This document shows, piece by piece, positions 6,747-55,370 of a stretch of DNA of 64,000 bases. A program made the position numbers and the translations under genes. Each line of letters opens with the position of its first letter. Within the stretch, counting starts at the first letter, position 1. The DNA is taken from the NCBI GenBank assembly GCA_038087875.1, contig CM075993.1:11968001-12032000 (forward strand), written 5' to 3'. The DNA comes from Malacoraja senta. Lineage: Eukaryota. Under the pieces are notes generated by a model. It saw only the letters and a list, made by a program, of their open reading frames with translations, was not told the origin of the DNA and did no database searches.

Positions 6747-7150
6747 GAGATTGGATAGATTTGGATAGTTTTCTCTGGAATGTCGGTGGCTGAGTGGAGA
6801 CTTGATAAAAGTATGTAATATTATGAGAGGCAATGATAGGGTAAGAAAGACGGAACCTTTTTTCCCGGGGTGTAAATGTCTAATACTAGAGGGCATAGCA
6901 ATAAAGTGAGAGGGGGAAAGTGTAATGGAGATGTGAGGGGAAAGTTTTATTTACACAGAGAGTAGCGGGGGACTGGAACACTTTGCTGGTTGAGGAAGAT
7001 ATGATAGTGGCATTTCAGAGCCTTTTAATAGGCACATGGAAGTACAGGGATATGGATCATATGCAGGCAGATGAGATCAGTTTAACCAGGCATCATGCTC
7101 AGCGCAAACATTGTGGGCCGAAGGGCCTGTTCCTCTGCTGTACTGTTCTA
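6747..7150 (+). mobile_element. older CR1 LINE 3' end
   Basis: ORF2 C-terminal remnant and 3' UTR ending GGGCCGAAGGGCCTGTT. Confidence 0.75.
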
Positions 7151-7151
7151 T

Positions 7152-8490
7152 AGATAGACACAAAAAGCTGGAGTAACTCAGTGGGACAGGAAGCATCTCT
7201 GGAGAGAAGGAATGGGTGATGTTTCGGGTCGAGACCCTTCTTCAGACTGGTTAGGGTTAAGGGTAACGAGAGATATACTATAAAAGGTGATGTGGAGAAA
7301 TATAGAACAATGAATGAAAGATATGCAAAAAAGGAAACAGGCCATTGTAAGCTGTTTGTAGGGTGAAAATGAGAAGCTAGTGTAACTTGGGTGGGGGAGG
7401 GATAGAGAGAGAGAGCCGGAGCTACCTGAAGTGAGAGAAATGAAAATTCATACCACTGGGCTGTAAGCTGCCCAAGCAAAATATGAGATGCTGTTCCTCC
7501 AATTTGCGTTTCGCCTCACTGTGACAATGGAGGAGACTGAGGACAGAAAGGTCAGTGTGGGAATGGGAAGGGAAATTAAAGTGTCCAGCACCGGTCGCCC
7601 AGTCTATGTTAGGTCGCGGAATTTCCGCCACCTCCAACGGGATCCCACCACTAGCCATATTTTCCCATCTCCACCCCTTTCCGCCTTCCGCAGAGACCGT
7701 TCCCTCCGCAACTCCCTGGTTAACTCATCCCTTCTCACTCAGTCCACCCCTCCCAAGGTACCTTCCCCTGCAATCGCAGAAGATGCAACACCTGTCGCTA
7801 TACCTCCTCCCTCGACTGTCCAGGGACCCACACAGTACTTTCAGGTTAGGCAGAGGTTCACTTGCACGTCCTCCAACCACATCTACTGTATCCATTGTTC
7901 AAGATGTGGACTCTTATACATCGGCGAGACCAAATGCAGACTGGGCAGTCGTTTCGCGGAACACCTTCGCTCAGCCCACGTGAACCAACCTGATCTCCCG
8001 GTTGCTAAACACTTTAATTCTCCTTCCTATTCGTACACAAACCTTTCTGTCCTCTGTCTCCTCCATTGTCAGAGTGAGGCTAAATGCAAATTGGAGGAAC
8101 AGCATCTCATATTTTGCTTGGGCAGCTTACAGCCCAGTGGTATGAATATTGATTTCTCTCACTTCAGCCCATTCAGTCCAGCATTCCCTCTCTCTATCTC
8201 TCCCCCACCCAAGTCACACTAGCTTCTCATTTTCATCCTACAAACAGCTAACAATGGCCTGTTTCCTTTATCATCATTACTTTTTTGCATATCTTTCATT
8301 CATTGTTCTTTATCTCTCCACATCACCGTCTATATCTCTCGTTTCCCTTATCCCTAACCAGTCTGAAGAAGGGTCTCGACCCGAAACATCACCCATTCCT
8401 TCTCTCCAGAGATGCTGCCTGTCCCGCTGAGTTACTCCAGCTTTTTGTGTCTATCTTTGGTTTAAACCAGCATCTGCAGTTTCTTCTTAC
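7152..8490 (+). mobile_element. Penelope-like element (GIY-YIG endonuclease, Neptune-like) with inverted 5' pseudo-LTR
   Basis: FTCTSSNHIYCIHCSRCGLLYIGETKCRLGSRFAEHLRS...VAKHFN is a PLE GIY-YIG with CCHH residues; 7152-7594 is the reverse complement of 7998-8456. Confidence 0.9.
8361..8393 (+). ncRNA. minimal hammerhead ribozyme-like motif in PLE pseudo-LTR
   Basis: CUGAAGA-A-GGGU(CUCG)ACCC-GAAA-CAUC. Confidence 0.55.
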
Positions 8491-8692
8491 ACTGTTCTGC
8501 ATGGGACTAGCATGGATGGACAAAAAATGGCCTGGATGGACAAAAAATGCTGTACACATCTACGACTCAGTCAAAACCAGTCCAAACTCTAAATTAGAAA
8601 AACCATCATAATGAAAAAATACATGTTTTCCAAAAGGAGAATTATTGCTAAAGAATACAAACCAATAGGGAACATATTAAAATTATTTCTAC

Positions 8693-8844: not shown

Positions 8845-9883
8845 CTAAGGAATACCAAGTCAACAGGATACTGCAAATGTATTGAACTGGCTTCCTTTCA
8901 TTGACACTATACAGCGTGTATTATTGATGCTTTCTCAAACTTGGCAAAAGTACATACAATTGCCTGCTGCAGGGATAGAATCAGCAAAGCACTCACTGGA
9001 TCTATTCCTGTACCCCAACCAATATTAAGTCAAGTCAATCAGCGGGCCAGGACCATCCCAGCAAAATGGCCCAACTCGCCCACCACAGATCGATGATGGA
9101 GGAGATTTCGTCTGCTGCGGAACGATAATGGAGGCCCAGTATGGGGAGAAGGCAGGAACGGGGGTACTGATTGGAGATGATCAGCCATGATCACATTGAA
9201 TGACGGTGCTGGCTCGAAGGGCCGAGTGGCCTACTCCTGCACCTATTGTCTATTGGTAGGCCTGGCTCAAACACCGCACTCCAAATCGGCCCCGGAAACA
9301 GGAAAAGAATCGGTGCCAGTGAGGGGGCTGGGGTCTTCCACCGTGACTGCACCTCACACCCACCTCTCCACATTTCATCAAGGAGGCCAAGCTGAGGACC
9401 AGCAAGCCCACAGCTGAGCCGGGCTCCACCATGAGGGAAAACCCACGTGCTTTAATCATTTTGCTTTTAAATACACATTGTTGTTTTAGCAACATTGAAT
9501 TGTATGCATTTTCATTCATTTTTTAAGTAATCTTTGAATAGTTTTAAGTTGTTTCTGTTAAGCAGGCACCCAAGCTCAGTTAAAGAGTTCTTCGTAGCCT
9601 TTAACAGACACGCTATCGAAGTCTATCAGGGCAGTTGGGGAATGGGATTCCAGCAAGTTATTTTATAAATTGTTCATCTCATGTTTGCACTCTTGCAGGA
9701 AGAACAGAATGTTAAAGTCCAGCCCAAGAGAACTTCCTCAATCTTTTATGCTCAGAGATGCAAATATGCATCACTGAAGGGCAAAGATTGCAAATACTTA
9801 GTGGAGTAATCAGCGGATAACTTAGTTGGACCAATGGGCCTGTTTCCACACTGTATAACTCCAATGAACATCGCACAGCAATA

Positions 9884-10065
9884 TGTTAAAGAAGGAACTG
9901 CAGATGCTGGAAAATCGAAGGTAGACAAAAATGCTGGAGAAACTCAGCAGGTGAGGCAGCATCTATGGACAGTCTGAAGAAAGGTTTCGACCCGAAACGT
10001 CGCCTATTTCCTTCGCTCCATAGATGCTGCCTCACCCACTGAGTTTCTCCAGCATTTTTGTCTAC
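9884..10065 (+). mobile_element. miniature fold-back PLE derivative with 15-bp TSD
   Basis: TSD CATCGCACAGCAATA at 9869-9883 and 10066-10080; 50-bp inverted arms around a hammerhead core. Confidence 0.85.
9972..10004 (+). ncRNA. minimal hammerhead ribozyme-like motif
   Basis: CUGAAGA-A-AGGU(UUCG)ACCC-GAAACGUC. Confidence 0.55.
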
Positions 10066-10420
10066 CATCGCACAGCAATACTTTCTTTCATGCATCAATA
10101 TGTGTTTGCTCCAATTTAACTGGAGCGATGTTTAATACTCTTATCTTAACCCGAAAACATTTAAAAAATCTCCATTTCCAATTTTCTCATTTTCACAAGC
10201 TTTTCACTGTACCTTGGAAAGACTTTCACTGTACCACTGTACATGTGACTATAACTAAACTAAACATAAACAATCCTGTGCATAAGTGGAATTAAAAGTG
10301 ATCTCCAGTCTGTAATGTAAAGCTTTGCGATATTCATGTAGTCCTAATTAATGCTGAGTGAAATAGCTTCTGCAGCTTGTGCCACAAGAGCCCAGATGCA
10401 TAGCTGGTTTCATAGCATCC

Positions 10421-11170: not shown

Positions 11171-11375
11171 GAATGGCCAAGGCAGAAGATGGAACCGCAG
11201 GAAAGCCCCGAGAAAACAACACCTGGCTGTGGTAGCGAGTCCGGGTTTAAACTTGGTTGTAGAGCCGGACAGCAGGAGGAATCACAATGGGGAGCTTGTT
11301 CCACAGACCCACCACCGTCTCAGTACTCCTTTCCAGTTTTACCACCTAATAATGCAAGGTACTGTGAGAATCAAA

Positions 11376-11532
11376 GGTAGACAAAAGTGCTGGAGAAACT
11401 CAGCCTGAAGAAGGATTTCGGCCCGAAAGGTTGGCTATTTCCTTCGCTCCATAGATGCTGCTGCACCCGCTGAGTTTCTCCAGCACTTTTGTCTACCTTC
11501 GATTTTCCAGCATCTGCAGTTCCTTCTTAAAC
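11376..11532 (+). mobile_element. miniature fold-back PLE derivative with 15-bp TSD
   Basis: TSD ACTGTGAGAATCAAA at 11361-11375 and 11533-11547; perfect 29-bp inverted arms. Confidence 0.85.
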
Positions 11533-11706
11533 ACTGTGAGAATCAAACTAATTTTACTGCTTTTGTGCTTAGATCATTTAAGGAAGGTACTTAAACTAAA
11601 ATTTAGATTTGAAGGATGCATTGCATTACTTAAAAAAACAAAGCAAATTACATCTGTTATACAGCGTTAAAGGGATCTTGGGTCAAAACAGATACTAGAC
11701 ACTTAC

Positions 11707-11785: not shown

Positions 11786-12989
11786 CTACCAGACAGAAAG
11801 AAAATCTGAGTTACTGCAGCACTTTGTGTCTTTCTTCAGTATAAACCAGCATCTGCAGTTCCTTCCTATACAGCTTTTCACTGTACCTCAGTACACATGA
11901 CAACAAATTAAACTTCGCAGGTCAGGTGGCATCTCTCAAGGATAAGTGACGTTTCTTTAGTCAGCCTGAAGAACCCGAAACGTCACCTATTCCTTTTCTC
12001 CAGAGATGCTGCCTACCCGCTGTGTTAGTCCAGTACTTTGTATCTATCTTCAGTAAAAAAAATGATTATGGTTATGGGTATTGATTGAAATGCAGTTGCA
12101 TCGATCACCACCTGCTGGCCAAATGCAACAACGATCCAACATTCAATCCATTTCAGTTCCTATTAAATCGCTCTCAATTCCTCATCGTTTGCCTTCATGG
12201 AGGATTCTCTTATATCACTTCATTCATAGTGAATATCAACCAGTATTCATTAGATTTAAAGAACATTTTTTTAAAGTTGACTTTTTTTTTTTTTGATATG
12301 CTCATCAATTCAATGCATTAAATAAATGGTAAAATGTGTTCCGAAATCAAGACTGTAGAAATAAAACAATAAGAACTGAAGATACTCAGCAAGTCAGGCA
12401 GCATCCATGGAGATAGAAAAATAGTTACTATTAATGTAAAATGAATTTAAAGAGAATTATCTGAAATTTATTCTGAAAATTATCTGAAATAATGATTTTT
12501 AAGACAAATAGGAAATGCTATTAACCCAGAGTATCAAATTACACAAATGCCACTTTTAAGTTTTCAGTCGAACATGAATGAAATTGTCTCACAGTCCGTT
12601 TTTCATGACATTCATCTTAAGCTTATCATTAATGCAGGAGCTGAGGGGGGGGGGGTCTAGTTGACCAAGATCTCTGAGGTGCTTCATGATCAAGATGCAA
12701 GGGCATAAACAACGCAGCCACACTGTGGTGCGCGGAAACATTTAGGTTAATCTTTAAAATTTAATGAATCAATTATGTTTCCTATCAGCAGTACTGTGGC
12801 AATGACAAGATGCCAACACATGGAATTTTGAAACTTCAACGTTACTTGGTCTCAATTTAAGACAAGACTTGACACCAGTCTAATGTCAGGTATTTAAAAT
12901 CAGACCAGTTCATGGTTCCCATGCAAATTGCTCACATACTGAACTTTTGCCCTGAGGGATCGTATCACATGCATTTCCACTGGCTCACC

Positions 12990-15344: not shown

Positions 15345-16982
15345 CTTCCTGATGTACTAGTAGCCAGAGGATCTGGGGTGAGGAGGATCTAAAGGAAATC
15401 CACATTGGGCAAGAAATGGTGTTGGGTAGACTGATGGGACTGAAGGCTGATAAATCCCCAGGGCCTGATGGTCTGCATCCCAGGGTATTAAAGGAAGTGG
15501 CTCTAGAAATCGTGGATGCATTGGTGATCATTTTCCAATGTTCTATAGATTCAGGATCAGTTCCTGTGGATTGGAGGGTAGCAAATGTTATCCCACTTTT
15601 TAAGAAAGGCAGGAAAACAGGGAATTATAGACCAGTTAGGCTGACATCGGTGGTGGGGAAGATGCTGGAGTCAATCATAAAAGATGAAAATCTGCATATT
15701 TGGTTAGCAGTAACAGGATCGGTCCGAGTCAGCATGGATTAACGAAGGGGAAATCATGCTTGACTAATCTTCTGGAATTTTTTGAGAATATAACTAGAAA
15801 AATGGACAAGGGAGAGGCAGTGGATGTAGTGTACCTGGACTTTCAGAAAACATTTGAGAAGGTCCCACAGAGAAGATTAGAGGGCACATGGTATTGGGAG
15901 TGGTAGGGCACATGGTATTGGGAGTAGAGTGCTGACATGGATAGAAAATTGGTTGGCAGACAGGAAACAAAGAGTAGGGATTTCAGAATGGCAGGCAGTG
16001 ACTAGTGGGGGTGCCGCAAGGCTCGGTGCTGGGACCACAGCTATTTACAATATATATTAATGATTTAGATGAAGGGATTACGTAACATTAGCAAATTTGC
16101 AGATGTCACAAAGCTAGGTGGCAGTGTGAACTGTGAGGAGGATGTTATGAGAATGCAGGTTGTGAGGTTATCCACTTTGGTAACAAAAACAGGAGAGCAG
16201 ATTATTATCTAAATAGTGTCAAGTTGGGAAAAGGGGAAGTACAACGGGATCTGTGGATCCTTGTTCATCAGTCAATGAAAGTAAGCATGCAGGTACAGCA
16301 GGCAGTGAAGAAAGTGAATGGCATGTTGGCCTTCATAACAAGGGGAGTTGATATAGCAGCAAAGAGGTCCTTCTGCAGTTATATAGGGCCCTAGTGAGAC
16401 CACACCTGGAGTATTGTGTGCAGTTTTTGTCTCCAAATTTGAGGAAGGACATTCTTGCTATTGAGGGAGTGCAGTGTAAATTCACAAGGTTAATTCCCGG
16501 GATGGTGGGGCTGTCATATGCTGAGAGAATGTAGCGGCTGGGCTTGTATACTCTAGAATTTAGAAGGATGAGAGGATATATTATTGAAACATATAAGATT
16601 ATTAAGGGTTTGGACATGCTACAGGCAGGAAACATGTTCCCGATGTTGGGGGAGTCCAGAAGCAGGGGCCACAATTTAAGAATAAGGGGTAAGCCATTTA
16701 GAATACAGATGAGGAAACACTTTTTAATACAGAGAGTTGTGAATCTATGGAATTCTCTGCCTCAGAGGGCAGTGGGGGCCAGTTCCCTGGATACTTTCAA
16801 GAGAGAGATAGATAGGGCTCTTAAAGATAGCATAGTCAGGGGATATGGGGAGAAGGCAGGAACGGGGTACTGATTGTGGATGATTAGCCATGATTAGCCA
16901 TGATTAGCCATTGAATGGCAGTGCTGGCTCGAAGGGCAGAATGGCCTACTCGTGCACCTATTATCTATTGTCTACTGTCTAT
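15345..16982 (+). mobile_element. CR1 LINE ORF2 (RT), 5'-truncated and frameshifted
   Basis: KSPGPDGLHPRVLKE, NYRPV.LTS, QHG.TKGKSCLTNL, YLDFQK motifs; CR1 3' UTR. Confidence 0.93.
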
Positions 16983-17190
16983 AACAAACATTAGATAGCT
17001 ACAAAGTGCTGGAGTTACTCAGCAGGTCAGGCAGCCTATCTGGAGAAAAAAAGATGGGTGACGTTTTGGGCTGGTCTGAAGAAGGGTCGATCCAAAACGT
17101 CACCCATGTTGAGTTACTCCAGCACTTTGTGTTCAACTTCGGTATAAACCAGCATCTGCTGTTCCATTCTGCACTGTATAGCAAACATAC

Positions 17191-22439: not shown

Positions 22440-23820
22440 AGGTATGTGGATTTCCCAGTATGCGCCAGCATTTAATTGCCTATCCCTAATTGTCCTTGAG
22501 GTGGTGGGGGAGCAGCCTTTATGAACCACCGCATTCCTTACACATGTGGCTGCTCCCACAATGCTGTAATGGAGAGTTCCAGGATTCTGACCCAGTAATG
22601 GTGAAGAGGATAATTTCTACATCAGGGTACTGCGTGACTTAAGCTTTCAGGTGATGGTGGTGTTCCCGTGCTTTTACTGTCCATGTCCTGGTTACGCTGG
22701 TAAGTTTGGAAAGTGCAATCTAGGGAATCTTGGTGAGTTGCAGCAGGGCATCTTCCATCTGACACAAACTGTTGCTACTGTGTGACGGTGGAGTGAGTGG
22801 ATGTCTATCAAATGGGTTGCTGTATATCAAGCTTCTTGAATGTTGTTGAAACTGCACTCATTCAGGGTGGCACAGTGCGCAGCGGTAGAGTTGCTGCCTT
22901 ACAACGCCAGACACCCGGGTTCAATCCTGACTACGGGTGTTATGTGTACGGAGTTTGTACGTTCACCCTGAGACCGCATGTGTTTTCTCTGGGTGCTCCG
23001 GTTTCCTCCCACATTCCAGGTTTGTAGATTATTTGGCTTTAGTTAAAATTATACATTGTTCTGTGTGTAGGGTAGTGCAAGTATATGGGGTGATCGATGG
23101 TTGGCACAGACTCTGTGGGCCAATGGGCCTGGTTCCATGCTGTATCTGTAAAGTCTAAAGGTGTGCAAAGAGTATTCCATCAAATTGATAACTTGAGCCT
23201 TGTACAGGCTTTGGGGAGTTCCAATGCAAGTTACTTACTGCAGATTTCCTATCCTCTGATCTGCTCTTGCAGTCAGACTGTGCATAAGGCTACTCCAGAT
23301 CAGTGTCTGGTCAACGATAATGCCCAGGATAGTGATAGTGGGGGATTCATTGACGGGAATGCCATTGAATGTCACGGGGTAATAGCTGGATTTTCTTTTG
23401 TTAAATATCATCATTGCCAGGAACTTGTGTGACCATTCCTTCTCTCCAGAGATGCTGCCTGCCGCGTTGAGTTACTCCAGCATGTATCTATCTTCACTTG
23501 TGTGACATGCCAGTTGCTCACCGTCTATCAGCCCAGACCATCTGTCTACATTTTGAAGTGGGCTGCTTCATGACCCAATGAGTTATAAATGGTGTTGAGC
23601 ATCTCTACTTATGATCTTACAATTGAAGGAAGGTTATTGATGGAACAGACATAAATGGTTGGGTCTTGGACAATACCCATCCCAAAGGGATGTCCTGGGA
23701 CTGAGATGATTGACTCCATGACCATCTTCCTTTGTATTAGGTATGATTCTAACCAGCAAAGGATTTCCCTCCTGATTCCCCCTGACGTGTGTTTTTGGAA
23801 CCAAACACTTGGAAACTGAG
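22440..23820 (-). mobile_element. old CR1/L2-group LINE, interrupted by a SINE
   Basis: RT remnant (GIR...WLESYL..RKM; PTIY.C.IN.LPSIVRS); same 3' end type occurs on plus strand at 57600-57690. Confidence 0.6.
22865..23159 (+). mobile_element. V-SINE (HE1-like)
   Basis: Head, V-domain and tail. Confidence 0.8.
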
Positions 23821-32970: not shown

Positions 32971-33264
32971 GGGGGTCAGTGCACTATGCAGCAGAGGCGT
33001 GGTACCTGGTCAGAATGGCATGCAGCAGAGGCGAATTACCTCGTCAGTATACCATGCAGTAGACAGGTGTGTTACCTGGTCAGTATATTACGCTGCAGAG
33101 AGGTGTGTGACCTGGTCAGTATATGATGCAGCAGAGGTGTGTGTTACTTGGTCAGTACACTACGCTGCAGAGACCTGTGTGTTATCTGGTCAGTATATTA
33201 CGCTGCAGAGACCTGTGTGTTACCTGGTCAGTATATTACGCTACAGAGAGGTGTGTGTTACCTG
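32971..33264. repeat. minisatellite, 8 units of 34-38 bp
   Basis: GTCAG recurs at 32975, 33009, 33043, 33079, 33115, 33151, 33189, 33227. Confidence 0.9.
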
Positions 33265-36237: not shown

Positions 36238-38073
36238 GAAGAGAAAGAGATTAGGTAAAACAAATGTAGGTCCCTTGTAGTCAGAAACATGTGAATTGAT
36301 CATGGGGAACAAGGACATGGCAGACCAATTGAATAACTACTTTGGTTCCGTCTTCACTAAGGAAGACATAAATAATCTGCCGGAAATAGCAGGGGGCCGC
36401 GGGTCAAATGAGATGGAGGAACTGAGTGAAATCCAGGTTAGTCGGGAAGTGGTGTTGGGTAAATTGAATGGATTAAAGGCCGATAAATCACCAGGGCCAG
36501 ATAGGCTGCATCCCAGAGTACTTAAGGAAGTAGCTCCAGAAATAGTGGATGCATTAGTGATAATTTTTCAAAACTCTTTAGATTCTGGAGTAGTTCCTGA
36601 GGATTGGAGGGTAGCAAACGTAACCCCACTTTTTAAGAAGGGAGTGAGAGAGAAAACGGGGAATTACAGACCAGTTAGTCTAACATCGGTAGTGGGGAAA
36701 CTGCTAGAGTGAGTTATTAAAGATGGGATAGCAGCACATTTGGAAAGTGGTGAAATCATTGGACAAAGTCAGCATGGATTTACGAAAGGTAAATCATGTC
36801 TGACGAATCTTATAGAATTTTTCGAGGATGTAACTAGTAGAGTGGATAGGGGAGAACCAGTGGATGTGTTGTATCTGGACTTTCAGAAGGCTTTCGACAA
36901 GGTCCCACATAAGAGATTAGTATACAAACTTAAAGCACACGGTATTGGGGGTTCAGTATTGATGTGGATAGAGAACTGGCTGGCAAACAGGAAGCAAAGA
37001 GTAGGAGTAAACGGGTCCTTTTCACAATGGCAGGCAGTGACTAGTGGGGTACCGCAAGGCTCAGTGCTGGGACCCCAGCTATTTACAATTTATATTAATG
37101 AACTGGATGAGGGAATTGAAGGCAACATCTCCAAGTTTGCGGATGACACTAAGCTGGGGGGCAGTGTTAGCTGTGAGGAGGATGCTAGGAGACTGCAAGG
37201 TGACTTGGATAGGCTGGGTGAGTGGGCAAATGTTTGGCAGATGCAGTATAATGTGGATAAATGTGAGGTTATCCACTTTGGTGGCAAAAACAGGAAAGCA
37301 GACTATTATCTAAATGATGGCCGATTAGGAAAAGGGGAGATGCAGCGAGACCTGGGTGTCATGGTACACCAGTCATTGAAAGTAGGCATGCAGGTGCAGC
37401 AGGCAGTGAAGAAAGCGAATGGTATGTTAGCTTTCATAGCAAAAGGATTTGAGTATAGGAGCAGGGAGGTTCTACTGCAGTTGTACAGGGTCTTGGTGAG
37501 ACCACACCTGGAGTATTGCGTACAGTTTTGGTCTCCAAATCTGAGGAAGGACATTATTGCCATAGAGGGAGTGCAGAGAAGGTTCACCAGACTGATTCCT
37601 GGGATGTTAGGACTGTCTTATGAAGAAAGACTGGATAGACTTGGTTTATACTCTCTAGAATTTAGGAGATTGAGAGGGGATCTTATAGAAACTTACAAAA
37701 TTCTTAAGGGGTTGGACAGGCTAGATGCAGGAAGATTGCTCCCGATGTTGGGGAAGTCCAGGACAAGGGGTCACAGCTTAAGGATAAGGGGGAAATCCTT
37801 TAAAACCGAGATGGGAAGAACTTTTTTCACACAGAGAGTGGTGAATCTCTGGAACTCTCTGCCACAGAGGGTAGTCGAGGCCAGTTCATTGGCTATATTT
37901 AAGAGGGAGCTAGATGTGGCCCTTGTGGCTAAAGGGATCAGAGGGTATGGAGAGAAGGCAGGTACGGGATACTGAGTTGGATGATCAGCCATGATCATAT
38001 TGAATGGCGGTGCAGGCTCGAAGGGCCGAATGGCCTACTCCTGCACCTAATTTCTATGTTTCTATGTTTCTAT
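36238..38073 (+). mobile_element. young CR1 LINE, 5'-truncated, RT domain nearly intact
   Basis: Continuous ORF2 frame with a single TGA at 36710-12; YLDFQKAFDKV, GVPQGSVLGP, FADD motifs; (TTTCTATG)n tail. Confidence 0.95.
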
Positions 38074-40680: not shown

Positions 40681-41189
40681 CACGTTGGCCAAAAAGGCCT
40701 GTTTTTTGTGCTGTATGAATCAACGATCTAAGATTGCGATGAAGATGTCTTCAAGATCCTCCCGGTGCCAGGTTCACCACCTTTTATCCCATTCAGTTGC
40801 TCCTGCTATCCACTCCTCCCCCTTCTCTGCAACATAAAACAGTCTGTATTTCTTGGTTTGGATGGGATGTCATTAACCTGAAACGATAACTCAGTTTTCT
40901 GCCTCCACAGACGCTGCCGGACTGCTGAGTATTTCCATCATTTAATTTTTATATTCCTGCCCATTCACTGCTGATCCTCTCGATAATATATGTGACAATG
41001 CTGTGCAATGTACGTGATGCCAGCCGCAAAAAGATACATAAACATAAAAGGAACTGCAGATGCTGATTTACGAACACAGACACAATGTGCTGGAGTAACT
41101 CAGCTGGCCAGGCATGTTTGGAGAACATGGAAAGGAGACCAATTTTTGTCTGCAGAAGGGTCCCGACCCAAAACGTCACCAATCAATGT

Positions 41190-42119: not shown

Positions 42120-42995
42120 GAGAGAGATACAAAGTGCTGGAGTAACTCTCCTGGATCAGGCAGCATCTCTGGAGAATATGGATAGGGGACGTTTCATGTT
42201 GGGACCCTTTTTCAGACTGATTGTGGGGGTGGGGTGGAGGGGGAGGGGACTGGTAGAGAGGAGGGACAGGACAAAAAAGAACACAAAGCGGGGAGAGCAG
42301 GAGGAAAAAGTCTGAAGAATGGTCTCGACCAGAAACATCACCCATTCCTTTTCTCGAATGATACTGCTTGTCCCGCTGAGTTACTCCAGCAAACTCTCCA
42401 TCCCCTCCCCAGTTCCCCACCAGTCTTACTGTCTCCGACTACATTCTATCTCTGTACTGCTCACTCCCCTGACATCAGTCTGAAGAAGGGTCTCGACCCG
42501 AGACGTTACCCATTCCTTCTCTCCAGAGATGCTGCCTGTCCCGCTGAGTTACCCCAGCATTTTGTGTCTACCAAAATACACAAAGTCTTGGAGTTAACTC
42601 CACCATGCCATGGCCGGTACGGTGGCACAGCGGTAGAGTTGCTGCTTTACAGTGCTTGCAGCACCGGAGACCCGGGTTCGATCCCGACTATGGGCGCTGT
42701 CTGTACGGAGTTTGTAAGTTCTCCTCGTGACTGCATGGGTTTTCTCCGAGATCTTCGGTTAACCCCCCACACTCCAAACACATACAGGTTTGTAGGTTAA
42801 TTGGTTCAGTAGAACTGTAAAATGTCCCTAGTGTGTGTAAGGTAGTGTTAATGTGTGGGGTTCACTGGTGGGCTGAAGGGCCTGTTTCTGAGCTGTATCA
42901 CTAAACTAAAACTAAACTAAACTCAGCGGATCAGGCAGCATCTCTGGAGAGCATGGCTAGGTGACATTTTGGGTCAGGACCCTTCTTTAGATTCC
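42120..42995. mobile_element. cluster of four PLE pseudo-LTRs (-,+,+,-) with a V-SINE inserted
   Basis: Hammerhead-type cores at ~42188(-), 42310(+), 42478(+), 42961(-). Confidence 0.75.
42615..42922 (+). mobile_element. V-SINE (HE1-like)
   Basis: Head, V-domain, tail; splits a PLE terminus at AACTC. Confidence 0.85.
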
Positions 42996-43559: not shown

Positions 43560-45695
43560 TATCCATATGATAACCATATAACCATTACAGCACGGAAACA
43601 GGCCATCTCGGCCCGTCAAGTCCGTGCCGAACATTATTATTATTATTATAATTATATATTTTTTTATAAATAAATACTACCTGCACTCAGACCATAACCC
43701 TCCATTCCTTTCCCGTCCATATACCCATCCAATCTATTTTTAAAGGATAAAATCGAACCTGCCTCCACCACTTCCACTGGAAGCTCATTCCACACAGCTA
43801 CCACTCTCTGAGTAAAGAAGTTCCCCCTAATGTTACCCGTAAACTTCTGTCCCTTAATTCTCAAGTCATGTCCCCTTGTTTGAATCTTCCCTACTCTCAA
43901 TGGAAAAAGCTTATCCACGTCAACTCTGTCTAACTCGCTCATAATTTTAAAGACCTCTATCAAGTCCCCTCTTAACCTTCTGCGCTCCAAAGAATAAAGA
44001 CCTAACTTGTTCAACCTTTCTCTGTAACTTAGTTGCTGAAACCCAGGCAACATTCTAGTAAATCTCCTCTGTACTCTCTCTATTTTGTTGACATCCTTCC
44101 TATAATTAGGCGACCAAAATTGTACTCCATACTCCAGAATTGGCCTCACCAATGCCTTGTACAATTTTAACATTACATCCCAACTTCTATATTCAATGCA
44201 CTGATTTATAAAGGCCAGCACACCAAAAGCTTTCTTTACCACCCTATCTACATGAGATTCCACCTTCAGGGAACTATGTACAGTTATTCCTAGATCCCTC
44301 TGTTCAACTGAATTCCTCAATTCTCTACCATTTACCATGTACGTCCTATTTTGATTTGTCCTGCCGAGATGTAGTACCTCACATTTATCAGCATTAAACT
44401 CCATCTGCCATCTTTCAGCCCACTCTTCCAAATGGCCTAAATCTCTCTGTAGACTTTGAAAATCTACTTCATTATCCACCACACCACCTATCTTAGTATC
44501 ATCTGCATACTTACTAATCCAATTTTCCACACCATCATCCAGATCATTGATGTACATGACAAACAACAGTGGACCCAACACAGACCCCTGAGGCACCCCA
44601 CTAGTCACAGGCCTCCAACCTGACAAACAGCCATCCACCATTACTCTCTGGCATCTCCCATTCAGCCACTGTTGAATCCATCTTGCTACTCCACCATTAA
44701 TACCCAACAATTTAATCTTCTTAACCAACCTTCCATGAGGAACCTTGTCAAAGGCCTTACTGAAGTCCATATAGACAACATCCACTGTTTTACCCTCATC
44801 AATTTCCCTAGTAACCTCTTCGAAAAATTCTAGAAGATTAGTCAAACATGACCTTCCAGGCACAAATCCATGTTGACTGTTCCTAATCAGACCCTGCTTA
44901 TCCAGATGCTTATATATATATTATCTCTAAGTATCCTTTCCATTAATTTGCCCACAACTGACGTCAAACTAACAGGTCTATAATTGCTTGGTTTACTCTT
45001 AGAACCCTTTTTAAACAACGGAACAACATGCGCAGTACGCCAATCCTCCGGCACTATTCCCGTTTCTAATGACATTTGAAATATTTCTGTCATAGCCCCT
45101 GCTATTTCTACACTAACTTCCCTCAATGTCCTCGGGAATATCCTGTCAGGACCTGGAGACTTATCCGTTTTCATCTTTTTCAAAAGTGTCCGCACCTCCT
45201 CTTCTTTGAATCTCATAGTTTCCATTGCTACTCTGCTTGTTTCCCTTACCTCACATAATTCCATATCCTTCTCCTTGGTGAATACCGAAGAAAAGAAATT
45301 GTTCAATATCTCCCCCATCTCTTTTGGCTCTGCAGATAGCTGTCCACTCTGACTCTCTAATGGACCAATTTTATTCCTTGTTATCCTTTTGCTATTAATA
45401 TAGCTGTAGAAACCCTTTGGATTTACTTTCACCTTACTTGCCAAAGCAACCTCATATCTTCTTTTAGCTTTTCTAATTTATTTCTTAATATTCTTTTTAC
45501 ATTCTTTATACTCCTCAAGCACCTCATTTACTCCATGCTGCCTATAATTATTGTAGATCTCTCTCTTTTTCCGAACCAAGTGTCCAATTTCCCTTGAAAA
45601 CCATAGCTCTTTCCAATTTTTACTATTTCCTTTCAACCGAACAGGGACATAAAGATTCTGTACTCTTAAAATTTCACCCTTAAATGTCCTCCATG
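43560..45695 (-). mobile_element. CR1 LINE (second subfamily), ~2.1 kb, 5'-truncated
   Basis: ORFs 44887-45444 and 43664-44863 carry the RT (YMDFSKAFDKV, GVPQGSVLGP, YADD); frameshift at a (TA)n run near 44911. Confidence 0.95.
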
Positions 45696-47913: not shown

Positions 47914-47964
47914 TTAAGTAGGTCAGACAGATAGAGCAGCTGGAGTTAGAATTTAATCATATTT

Positions 47965-49300
47965 ATGAAGGAACTGCAGATGCGGGTTAAACTGAAGATA
48001 GTTGGAGTAACTCAGCGGGACAGGCAGCATCTCTGGAGAGAAGGAATGGGTGCCGTTTCGGAAAGAGACCCTTCTTCAGACTAGTCAGGGGATAGGGAAA
48101 TGAGAGATACAGACAGTGATGTAGAGAGATATAGAACAAATGAGTGAATGAAAGATATGCAAAAAAGTAACGATGATAAAGGAGACATGCCATTGTTAGC
48201 TGTTTACGTGAGAATGGGAGCCTGGTGCGACGAGTGGGGGAGGTATAGGGAGAGAGGGAATGCCAGGGTTAAGAAGTTAGAGAAGTCAATATTCATGCCA
48301 CTGGGTTGTGAGCTGCCCAAGCAAAATATGAGATGATGTTCCTTGAATTTGCGATTGGCCTCACTCTGACAATGGAGGAGGCCTAGGACAGAAAGGTCAG
48401 TGTGGGTACACAAAAATGCTGGAGAAACTCAGCGGGTGCAGCAGCATCTATGGAGCGAAGGAAATAGGTAACGTTTCGGGCCGAAACCCTTCTTCAGTGT
48501 GGGAATGGGAAGTGGAATTAAAGTGTTTGGCAACCGGGAGATCAGGTAGGTCCATGTGGACTGAACGAAGGTGTTCAGCGAAACGATCGCCCAGTCTACG
48601 TTTGGTCTCGCCGATGTTTAAGAGTCCACATCTTGTACAAAGAATACAGTAGATGAGGTTAGAGAAGGTGCAAGTGAACCTCTGCCTATCCTGAAAGGAA
48701 TGTCGGGGTCCCTGGACAGAGTCAAGGGAGGAGGTATAGGGACAGATGTTGCGTCTCCTGCAGTTGCAGGGAAAGGTACCTGGGGAGGGGGTGGTTTGGG
48801 TGGGAAGGGATGAGTGAACCAGGGAGTCGTGGAGGGAACGGCTTCTGCGGAAGGTGGAAATGGGTGGAGATGGGAAGATGTGACTAGTGTTGGGATCCCA
48901 TTGGAGGTGGTGAAAATGGCGGAGGATCTTGTGTTGTATGCGACGGCTGATGGGGTGGAAGATAAGGACTAGAGAGACTCTGTCCCTGTTGCGACTAGAA
49001 GAGGGGAACAAGGGCAGAGCTGCGGGTTATCAAGAAGATATGTGTGACAGCCTCATCTATGAAGGAAGAGGGGAACCCCCGTTCCCTATAGAATGAGGAC
49101 ATCTCGGATGTCTTGGTATGGAACACCTCATCTTAGGCGCAGATGCGGCGTAACCGGAAGAATTGGGAGTAGGGGATAGAGACTTTGCAGGAGGCAGAGT
49201 GGGAAGAAGTGACTTTGAGATAATTGTGGGAGTCAGTGGGATTGTAATAGACGTCAGTCGATAGTCTATCTCCCGTGATGGAGACGGTGAGATCGACTGA
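47965..49300 (-). mobile_element. Penelope-like element 3' part (RT thumb remnant, Cys-rich linker, GIY-YIG, pseudo-LTR)
   Basis: PGTFPCNC...C; NLIYCILCTRCGLLNIGETKRRLGDRFAEHLRS; nested mini-PLE at 48407-48493. Confidence 0.9.
48467..48497 (-). ncRNA. minimal hammerhead ribozyme-like motif (sense to VPS13C pre-mRNA)
   Basis: CUGAAGA-A-GGGU(UUCG)GCCC-GAAACGUU. Confidence 0.55.
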
Positions 49301-54700: not shown

Positions 54701-55370
54701 ATTATTTTTATACTATACATTTTTGAATTAGTTTAATACATTTTGTGTGCATGTCCTCAAATGTTTCATTTGTATTGCAGCGACAATCATGAGTCAATGC
54801 TCGTCAGTAATTCACCCAACAATGGAAACATATTACTCTCACAACACCTTTGGCAATTTTGAGCTGTCTTAAATACTCTATACCACGGAGAAAAATCAGA
54901 CAGCCTACTCAATAAAGAGTCACATCTTATCACGACACTCTTAGCGACTTTACGATGGTCTTTCCTTAGCTTTTGCAATCTTTTTAAAAGTGGGCGGTAA
55001 GACTAACAAACAACAATCCAGCTTTTACTAAAAAATAAACGCATGCACAAGTTCAGCATCATAGCCTTAGTATTATCTTACAGTATACAAACAAAAATAG
55101 CATTTGTGTTTTTTTTCCCCTTAAAAAAAACCCATCTCTAAAGTCTACACAACAGTCTGAAAAAGTGTCTCGACCCGAAACGTCACCCATCCCTTCTCTC
55201 CAGAGATGCTGCCTGTCCTGCTGAGTTACTCCAGCCTTTGCGTCTCTCTGGAGAACATGGACAGGTGTCGTTCCAGATCGGGATCCTTTCTTTTATGTTA
55301 TACCTCAAGTGCACAGGAGTCCCAAAATTAGAGTGGAGCATCAGGCTTATGACTAATGATGATCAAGTAC

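What the first reader, a model, noticed from the sequence alone, without database searches (positions are those of the whole stretch)
9869..10080. ~180-bp fold-back mini-retroelement: 50-bp stem, hammerhead core in the loop, exact 15-bp TSD
Seen: CATCGCACAGCAATA is duplicated exactly at 9869-9883 and 10066-10080. Inside, arms 9920-9969 and 10017-10066 are reverse complements (48/50) and enclose CUGAAGA...GAAACGUC. There is no coding sequence. Established: PLE insertions often have an inverted 5' pseudo-LTR. Inference: this is either an extreme truncation-plus-inversion product of PLE integration or a self-propagating non-autonomous hairpin unit (retrozyme-like) mobilised by the PLE RT/GIY-YIG. 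I know of no description of such a unit in cartilaginous fish.
Basis: partly seen in the sequence, partly recalled or inferred. Interest (0 to 1): 0.7.

Follow-up and report, generated by a model that had tools for sequence, protein, structure and literature searches.

The report
Tiny head-to-head Penelope insertion scar
This 182-base DNA hairpin is two short end-pieces of a very common Penelope-type jumping gene joined head to head, a known layout that was likely made afresh as it inserted rather than copied as a unit, so it is ordinary, although its fixed end points likely record where the element's RNA starts and where copying begins.

Summary
In detail: exact 15-bp duplication, 48/50 arms, minimal hammerhead motif in the loop. 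The insert is two pieces of one pseudo-LTR (pLTR) joined head to head: a truncated piece with tail, and a hammerhead-to-arm piece without. The window holds 28 related segments; 8 follow element body sequence (4 clearly), part of it coding GIY-YIG. Five head-to-head copies (158-1340 bp) have five different junctions, and the 4 with both ends intact all pair a tail end with an arm end. A sister copy has an empty orthologous site in two other organisms. This copy's hammerhead has lost G10.1, and its arm mismatches are CpG decay. The layout is published (PMC3846280, PMC8557442, PMC11167929), and this scan reached the same reading on other skate/shark DNA. Residual interest: many copies start at an initiator-like motif just before the hammerhead. 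No genome or RNA test was possible, and my genome-wide junction test missed its target.

The parts
9869..9883 (+). Left target-site duplication, 15 bp
9884..9919 (-). Penelope 'tail' extension (36 nt), on this side only; family positions +94 to +129 (+1 = C of CTGAAG)
   Evidence: same tail at 11498-11533 and 8457-8492
9920..9969 (-). Left arm: 5'-truncated pLTR piece, family +44 to +93, read on the minus strand
9970..9973 (+). CAGT: the family's preferred 5' edge (initiator-like) and start of the second half; the junction lies between 9969 and 9970
9974..10001 (+). Minimal type I hammerhead core (no helix III loop; G10.1 changed to A at 9982); predicted cut after 10001
   Evidence: motif class from PMC4209133
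10002..10016 (+). Pyrimidine tract between hammerhead and arm; predicted to pair with the CUGAAGAAGG box in the monomer
10017..10066 (+). Right arm, family +44 to +93, ending at the tail-less end point GTCTACC
10066..10080 (+). Right target-site duplication; first base shared with the arm
11361..11547 (+). Sister fold-back of the same subfamily (B): 15-bp TSD, same two outer end points in swapped roles, different junction (+65 against about -4); empty site in two other organisms
48405..48497 (-). Subfamily B solo piece (hammerhead to arm end, intact core), 10-bp duplication, inserted into a Penelope GIY-YIG coding region
7153..8491 (.). 1.34-kb head-to-head copy of subfamily A with GIY-YIG coding sequence, junction at 7594/7617, arm end left, tail end right, 8-bp duplication
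47964..49297 (-). Longest Penelope body fragment in the window: RT C-terminal part, cysteine-rich linker, GIY-YIG, 3' region, pLTR with tail; broken by stops, frameshifts and the nested B piece
16994..17177 (.). Older fold-back (subfamily A-like): tailed half from about -3 with an internal deletion, tail-less half from about +15; about 12-bp duplication with 1 mismatch
41040..41183 (.). Older fold-back: tailed half from about +26, other half from about -2, right end lost

Best explanation
The insert is two pieces of the terminal repeat (pLTR) of a very abundant Penelope-like retrotransposon joined head to head, and it was likely made once, at insertion, when the element's enzyme would have cut both target strands 14-15 bp apart and copied its RNA from both cuts. 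Shown: the anatomy, the duplication, the family link to RT/GIY-YIG coding sequence, two fixed 3' end points (+93 and +129), a preferred 5' edge (-4 to +1), and different junctions in different copies. Inferred from the in vitro behaviour of the anole element (PMC11167929: both strands cut and extended, copying starts inside the RNA at two sites that bound the tail): the left cut primed at the tail end and copying stopped at +44; the right cut primed at the arm end and ran off the RNA's 5' end at -4; the two new strands were then joined by host repair. Inferred further: -4/-3 is the transcription start, so priming on the 5' pLTR of the message yields 95-135-nt run-off copies in bulk without any separate mini-element. 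The hammerhead is a passenger of the pLTR; the copy is now dead and decaying.
For: Five head-to-head copies, five junctions (tailed half / tail-less half start): +44/-4, about -4/+65, -746/-349, about -3/+15, about +26/-2. 4 of 4 with both ends intact pair a tail end with an arm end. Of 28 segments, 10 end at the arm end, 9 at the tail end, 2 near it, 7 elsewhere (hand-classed). In whole-genome contigs, ends with mixed flanks pile up at 11533/11535 (X2 292+114, X1 188+77) and 11498/11500 (X1 82, X2 121). The pLTR follows GIY-YIG coding sequence at 7467-8492 and 47964-49297 (Pfam GIY-YIG E 0.0015, under its cut-off; tblastn E 1e-56 to 1e-91 to named shark/ray RT-GIY-YIG proteins P0001, P0002). 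P0002 runs on into a peptide like the one the hammerhead region encodes (by eye). Empty site for the sister copy in X3 record 23 and X7 record 28. Both halves of a copy share their variant letters. Both arm mismatches are CpG decay, not compensatory. 6 of 14 segments with a demonstrable start begin at the hammerhead edge, p = 3e-5 against uniform truncation; 12 of 20 if unverified starts count. 5 of 8 body-linked copies match YYANWYY at -5..+2 (consensus recalled). Layout published: PMC3846280, PMC8557442.
Against: Only one 64-kb window could be censused (no genome). My genome-wide junction test began 9 bases inside the hammerhead by my indexing error and could not see junctions at the hammerhead edge, including this one. 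table 5c lists junction contigs inside the arm at high depth (X1 9965>10024, depth 471.8 against about 4-7 in flanks; X7 9965>10028, 443.6 against about 20), which could be a shared hairpin junction. All 3 subfamily B insertions start at the edge and none has body sequence, so B has no shown autonomous parent. pLTR-encoded peptides matched none of 188 retrieved proteins, so 'tail = start of the ORF' is not shown. 5 of 11 candidate insertions had no duplication above the null. The anole study saw no RNA ends at the hammerhead and does not explain inversions.
Confidence: 0.78

Rival explanations
1. Subfamily B is a bodiless, non-autonomous master of about 133 nt (initiator, hammerhead, arm, tail) that is mobilised in trans by a Neptune-type enzyme, like a SINE. 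Fold-backs are still made at insertion, but the template is a short RNA, not the 5' end of a full-length message.
For: 3 of 3 B insertions in the window start at the hammerhead edge with no body. Loose ends upstream of CAGT show no common sequence (consensus agreement about 0.6, most ends short). B is recently active (empty sites). pLTRs alone can drive insertion in trans (PMC3846280); retrozymes derive from pLTRs (bioRxiv 10.64898/2026.07.22.740005).
Against: Subfamily A, which has a body, shows the same edge and the same fold-backs, so no special master is needed. n = 3.
Confidence: 0.14
2. The fold-back itself is the replicating unit: a ~180-nt hairpin RNA with a hammerhead in the loop, retrozyme-like, copied as a whole.
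For: Very stable hairpin. One half starts at the same edge in 4 of 5 fold-backs. High-depth junction contigs table 5c.
Against: 5 of 5 junctions differ; sizes run to 1.34 kb; which half is complete swaps between the two B copies; single hammerhead that needs a dimer and cleaves poorly (PMC4209133); G10.1 lost; predicted pairing probability of helices I and II is 0.0 in this copy and 0.005 for helix II in the intact B piece; arm changes are not compensatory.
Confidence: 0.04
3. The inversion arises by self-priming (snap-back) on an antisense template before integration, as proposed for rotifer Penelope, not by priming from two target cuts.
For: Proposed in PMC3846280 from palindromes at inverted junctions; the high-depth arm junction near CATCTA would fit a snap-back point; the sister junction has a 3-4 nt match (CAG/CAGC) between halves.
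Against: This copy's junction is not a palindrome; both outer ends fall on the two fixed end points, which the two internal start sites of PMC11167929 explain directly.
Confidence: 0.04

Closest known systems
EN+ Penelope-like insertion unit with inverted 5'-truncated pLTR and one-sided tail (Adineta vaga Pen2a/Pen2, PMC3846280 passages; general scheme PMC8557442 passages)
   Same: Head-to-head pLTRs, 30-40 bp tail on one end (36 here), TSD around the whole unit (8-10 bp there), solo pLTRs, initiator-like motif in the pLTR
   Different: No ORF between the repeats; whole unit 182 bp; TSD 14-15 bp; tens of thousands of distinct contigs per run carry the family
Anole Poseidon PAc in vitro (PMC11167929, main text read)
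   Same: Both strands cut and extended; two internal start sites bounding the tail; hammerhead in the pLTR, not needed for insertion and inactive without protein
   Different: Poseidon clade, whereas the window's body fragments carry the cysteine-rich linker of Neptune/Nematis; the paper does not address inversions or short run-off copies
Minimal type I hammerheads of metazoan PLEs (PMC4209133, results and discussion read)
   Same: No helix III loop, extra base before helix II, mostly single dispersed motifs, some pairs on opposite strands 100-700 bp apart
   Different: This copy has lost G10.1 and has at most 2 bp of helix I; cartilaginous fish are not named in the parts read
Metazoan non-LTR retrozymes (PMC7229834 passages; bioRxiv 10.64898/2026.07.22.740005 parts 1-3 of 5)
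   Same: Short, non-coding, type I hammerhead, pLTR-related, long TSDs; reported in one chondrichthyan genome
   Different: Those are head-to-tail tandems with a hammerhead per unit and circular RNAs; this is head-to-head with one damaged minimal motif

Membership tests
EN+ Penelope-like element (pLTR-derived insertion) | Terminal repeat lies downstream of RT plus C-terminal GIY-YIG coding sequence | tested here: met
   For subfamily A at 7467-8492 and 47964-49297; the finding's subfamily B aligns with A but has no body in the window
EN+ Penelope-like element (pLTR-derived insertion) | 30-40 bp tail present on one end only | tested here: met
   36 nt at 9884-9919; 4 of 4 intact fold-backs; two end peaks
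EN+ Penelope-like element (pLTR-derived insertion) | Inverted 5'-truncated copy adjacent at the 5' end | tested here: met
EN+ Penelope-like element (pLTR-derived insertion) | Hammerhead motif in the pLTR | tested here: met
   motif at 9974-10001 and 6 more strict matches; activity untested
EN+ Penelope-like element (pLTR-derived insertion) | TSD and empty orthologous site | tested here: met
   TSD 15/15; empty site shown for the sister copy only
EN+ Penelope-like element (pLTR-derived insertion) | pLTR and tail overlap the start of the ORF | tested here: inconclusive
   Frames are open through arm and tail in B, but no match to 188 proteins; no full-length relative of this family in hand
Neptune/Nematis clades | Zn-finger-like motif between RT and EN (PMC8557442) | tested here: met
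   CNRRRCNTC at the 7.7-kb body; CxnCxxC in the last 260 aa of 76 of 80 long relatives (a loose pattern that can also hit the EN domain)
Neptune/Nematis clades | RT phylogeny | not tested
Metazoan non-LTR retrozyme | Head-to-tail tandem units, each with a hammerhead | tested here: not met
   Head-to-head, one motif; no such array among 17 tandem rows; a few go-back joints exist in the family (table 5c)
Metazoan non-LTR retrozyme | Intact, active type I hammerhead | tested here: not met
   G10.1 lost, helix II not predicted to form; cleavage itself not testable
Metazoan non-LTR retrozyme | Discrete linear or circular RNA | not testable with these tools
   Only contigs were available; no listed holder on record as RNA
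Self-replicating fold-back family | Shared junction among copies | tested here: inconclusive
   Not met in the window (5 of 5 differ); genome-wide test missed; ambiguous high-depth joints

The most novel reading that the evidence does not exclude
Subfamily B is a recently active, bodiless Penelope parasite: a ~133-nt hammerhead-bearing RNA with its own initiator, copied in trans by a Neptune-type enzyme into a very large number of sites in skates or rays, inserting as monomers or as two-ended fold-backs, with a few junction types possibly amplified as units. It would be a Pol II 'SINE' of Penelope elements distinct from tandem retrozymes.
Probability: 0.17. Interest if true: 0.5.

Novelty: new member of a known kind. 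Interest (0 to 1): 0.2.

Why it matters
As a feature it is a dead insertion of a known layout. Its value is as data: how Penelope elements make inverted copies and tails is still open (PMC8557442, PMC11167929), and this family offers very many short insertions with three fixed points (5' edge, arm end, tail end). A census could test directly whether both target strands are primed from the two internal start sites and whether short copies are run-offs from the RNA's 5' end. The scan has noted the same on other skate and shark DNA, so this copy adds one more case plus empty-site evidence.

Tried and rejected
No whole genome is held, so no copy census. Exact-pattern scans for outside copies found 0 in viral, metagenome and prokaryote collections; protein-guided locus search found none. 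No RNA holder listed; not used as evidence. One search was meant to list inversion junctions, but the reference began at 11414 while the hammerhead starts at 11405; it showed only 2 opposite-strand joints (the sister copy's own) and says nothing on junctions at the edge. Summed depth over the element is about 10^5 times the flanks, but the tool states this is no copy number. Rfam: nothing at gathering score; miRNA models match the stem only as a generic hairpin, so a miRNA gene is rejected. tRNA-derived SINE head: none. DNA transposon/MITE: rejected because the inverted repeats are not terminal on one side and the duplication is 14-15 bp. Junction at the hammerhead cut site (+28/+29): not for this copy (+44); one possible case at 23433 and one near +26 at 41.1 kb. 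Covariation in the pLTR fold: 1 of 21 pairs, covariation term -0.02, no support. Host gene: no exon-like Pfam hit among 49 window ORFs other than two RTs, GIY-YIG and one ALKBH8_N match. Literature searches for a description in cartilaginous fish found none beyond the retrozyme preprint; Repbase and Dfam could not be searched, and that preprint's supplements were not seen.

Full report
Observation. The TSD scores 15 against a maximum of 7 at 300 random sites, and no shuffle of 200 folds as well. Two details change the reading: 9884-9919 is a 36-nt extension on one side only, and base 10066 belongs to both arm and TSD.

The family. A search with two window copies found 28 related segments. Taking the C of CTGAAG as +1, the unit is hammerhead core (+1 to +28), pyrimidine tract, arm (+44 to +93) and tail (to +129). 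There are two subfamilies; the finding, 11376-11533 and 48405-48497 are B, the rest A or A-like. Four A copies share upstream body sequence clearly and four probably have a body. At 7467-8492 and 47964-49297 that body codes for broken RT/GIY-YIG protein, 53-65% identical to named stingray and zebra shark proteins. Full-length relatives are 800-1000 aa RT proteins with a C-terminal YIG motif. A cysteine-rich linker points to the Neptune or Nematis clades (PMC8557442 passage); no tree was built. The host is thus probably a cartilaginous fish, likely a skate or ray (inferred).

Anatomy. The left half (9884-9969, minus strand) is family +44 to +129. The right half (9970-10066) is -4 to +93. Both 3' ends face outwards. 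The hairpin is simply the overlap of the two halves, and the hammerhead is in the loop because only one half reached it.

Replicating unit or by-product. Five head-to-head copies can be read in the window. Their junctions (tailed half / tail-less half) are +44/-4, about -4/+65, -746/-349, about -3/+15 and about +26/-2. All differ, the longest is 1.34 kb with endonuclease code, and the complete half is the tail-less one in the finding but the tailed one in its sister. I left out two unclear loci (11917-12050, 42121-42572). All 4 with both ends intact join one tail end and one arm end. Of the 28 segments, 10 end at the arm end, 9 at the tail end, 2 near it and 7 elsewhere (hand-classed). Whole-genome contigs show the same two end peaks with mixed flanks. 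The sister copy is absent, with one TSD left, in organisms B and E (X3 record 23, X7 record 28), which shows true insertion and recent activity. The finding seems older: an X7 contig starts 22 letters inside the right arm and runs into the flank, short of the tool's 31-letter bridging rule, so suggestive only.

Against this reading: the genome-wide junction test failed through my indexing error; one search lists two arm-internal junction contigs at about 100 and 20 times flank depth, which may be a recurrent snap-back point, an amplified junction or a k-mer artefact; subfamily B has no body in the window; 5 of 11 candidate insertions had no TSD above the null; and pLTR peptides hit none of 188 proteins.

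The ribozyme. The core is the minimal type of PMC4209133 (results and discussion read): it needs a dimer and cleaves poorly. Here G10.1 is A, helix I has at most 2 pairs, and neither helix is predicted to form, in the hairpin or the half alone; even the intact B piece is predicted to hide its CUGA box by pairing with the pyrimidine tract. The two arm mismatches are separate CpG changes at one site, so the arms were identical at birth and are decaying.

Mechanism. The anole enzyme cuts and extends both strands and starts inside the RNA at two sites that bound the tail (PMC11167929, main text read). Applied here (inference): staggered cuts 14-15 bp apart, one primed at +129 and one at +93, two new strands growing towards each other, one stopping early and one running off the RNA end, then joined. 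The 5' edge is non-random: 6 of 14 demonstrable starts lie at -4..+1 (p = 3e-5), 12 of 20 with unverified ones. It matches a recalled initiator consensus in 5 of 8 body-linked copies, and an initiator-like motif was noted in rotifer pLTRs (PMC3846280). A transcription start there would make short copies the run-off product of the 5' pLTR. This step is untested.

Known or new. Inverted truncated pLTR, one-sided tail and TSD are described in PMC3846280, PMC8557442 and PMC8969392 (passages). Retrozymes are head-to-tail tandems with circular RNAs (PMC7229834 passages; bioRxiv preprint parts 1-3 of 5, which includes one chondrichthyan; supplements not seen). Seven searches found no paper on such fold-backs in cartilaginous fish; repeat databases were not searchable. 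Earlier notes of this scan report the same reading on other genomes; they are not independent evidence, and I took from them the lead on the fixed start and the pointer to PMC3846280.

Verdict. A real feature, a new member of a known kind: the smallest form of a Penelope inverted insertion. Interest 0.2; novel case (bodiless Penelope parasite) probability 0.17.

Noticed in passing
window 11361-11547: Sister fold-back is lineage-specific (empty site in organisms B and E), while its hammerhead already carries changes in helix II and at C15.2; junction has a 3-4 nt match between the halves.
   Followed up: partly
window 48405-48497: A subfamily B solo piece with an intact core is nested in a subfamily A GIY-YIG coding region; its 10-bp duplication overlaps the piece's own first four bases, suggesting microhomology at the 5' join.
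   Followed up: partly
window 9786-9868, 7090-7152, 16900-16993: Three of the five fold-backs sit in or next to the 3' tails of other abundant repeats (the one at 16.9 kb matches the tail after the LINE RT at 36.7-38 kb). May be chance given their density, or a target bias.
   Followed up: partly
window 10002-10026 and homologues: The pyrimidine tract followed by (C/T)AG and then ATG looks like a splice acceptor before a start codon; one reading frame through arm and tail stays in register between subfamilies A and B across a 3-nt length difference.
   Followed up: partly
window 55154-55295: A sense hammerhead-arm piece is followed directly by an antisense hammerhead-tract piece: tail-to-tail order, unlike the other inversions.
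   Followed up: no
window 42121-42572: Cluster of three pLTR pieces of different subfamilies in mixed orientation.
   Followed up: no
window 36713-37975 (+) and 43664-44920 (-): Two LINE-type RT ORFs of about 420 aa (Pfam RVT_1), about 65% alike in DNA.
   Followed up: no
window 23433-23494: A piece that may begin at about +29, the predicted hammerhead cut site.
   Followed up: no
table 5c, window 11435-11492: Go-back joints from arm end to tract (depth 381 in X2, 47 in X1) suggest small head-to-tail arrays of the arm elsewhere in the genome.
   Followed up: no
window 32974-33264: Tandem array of a 36-38 bp unit, about 8 copies.
   Followed up: no
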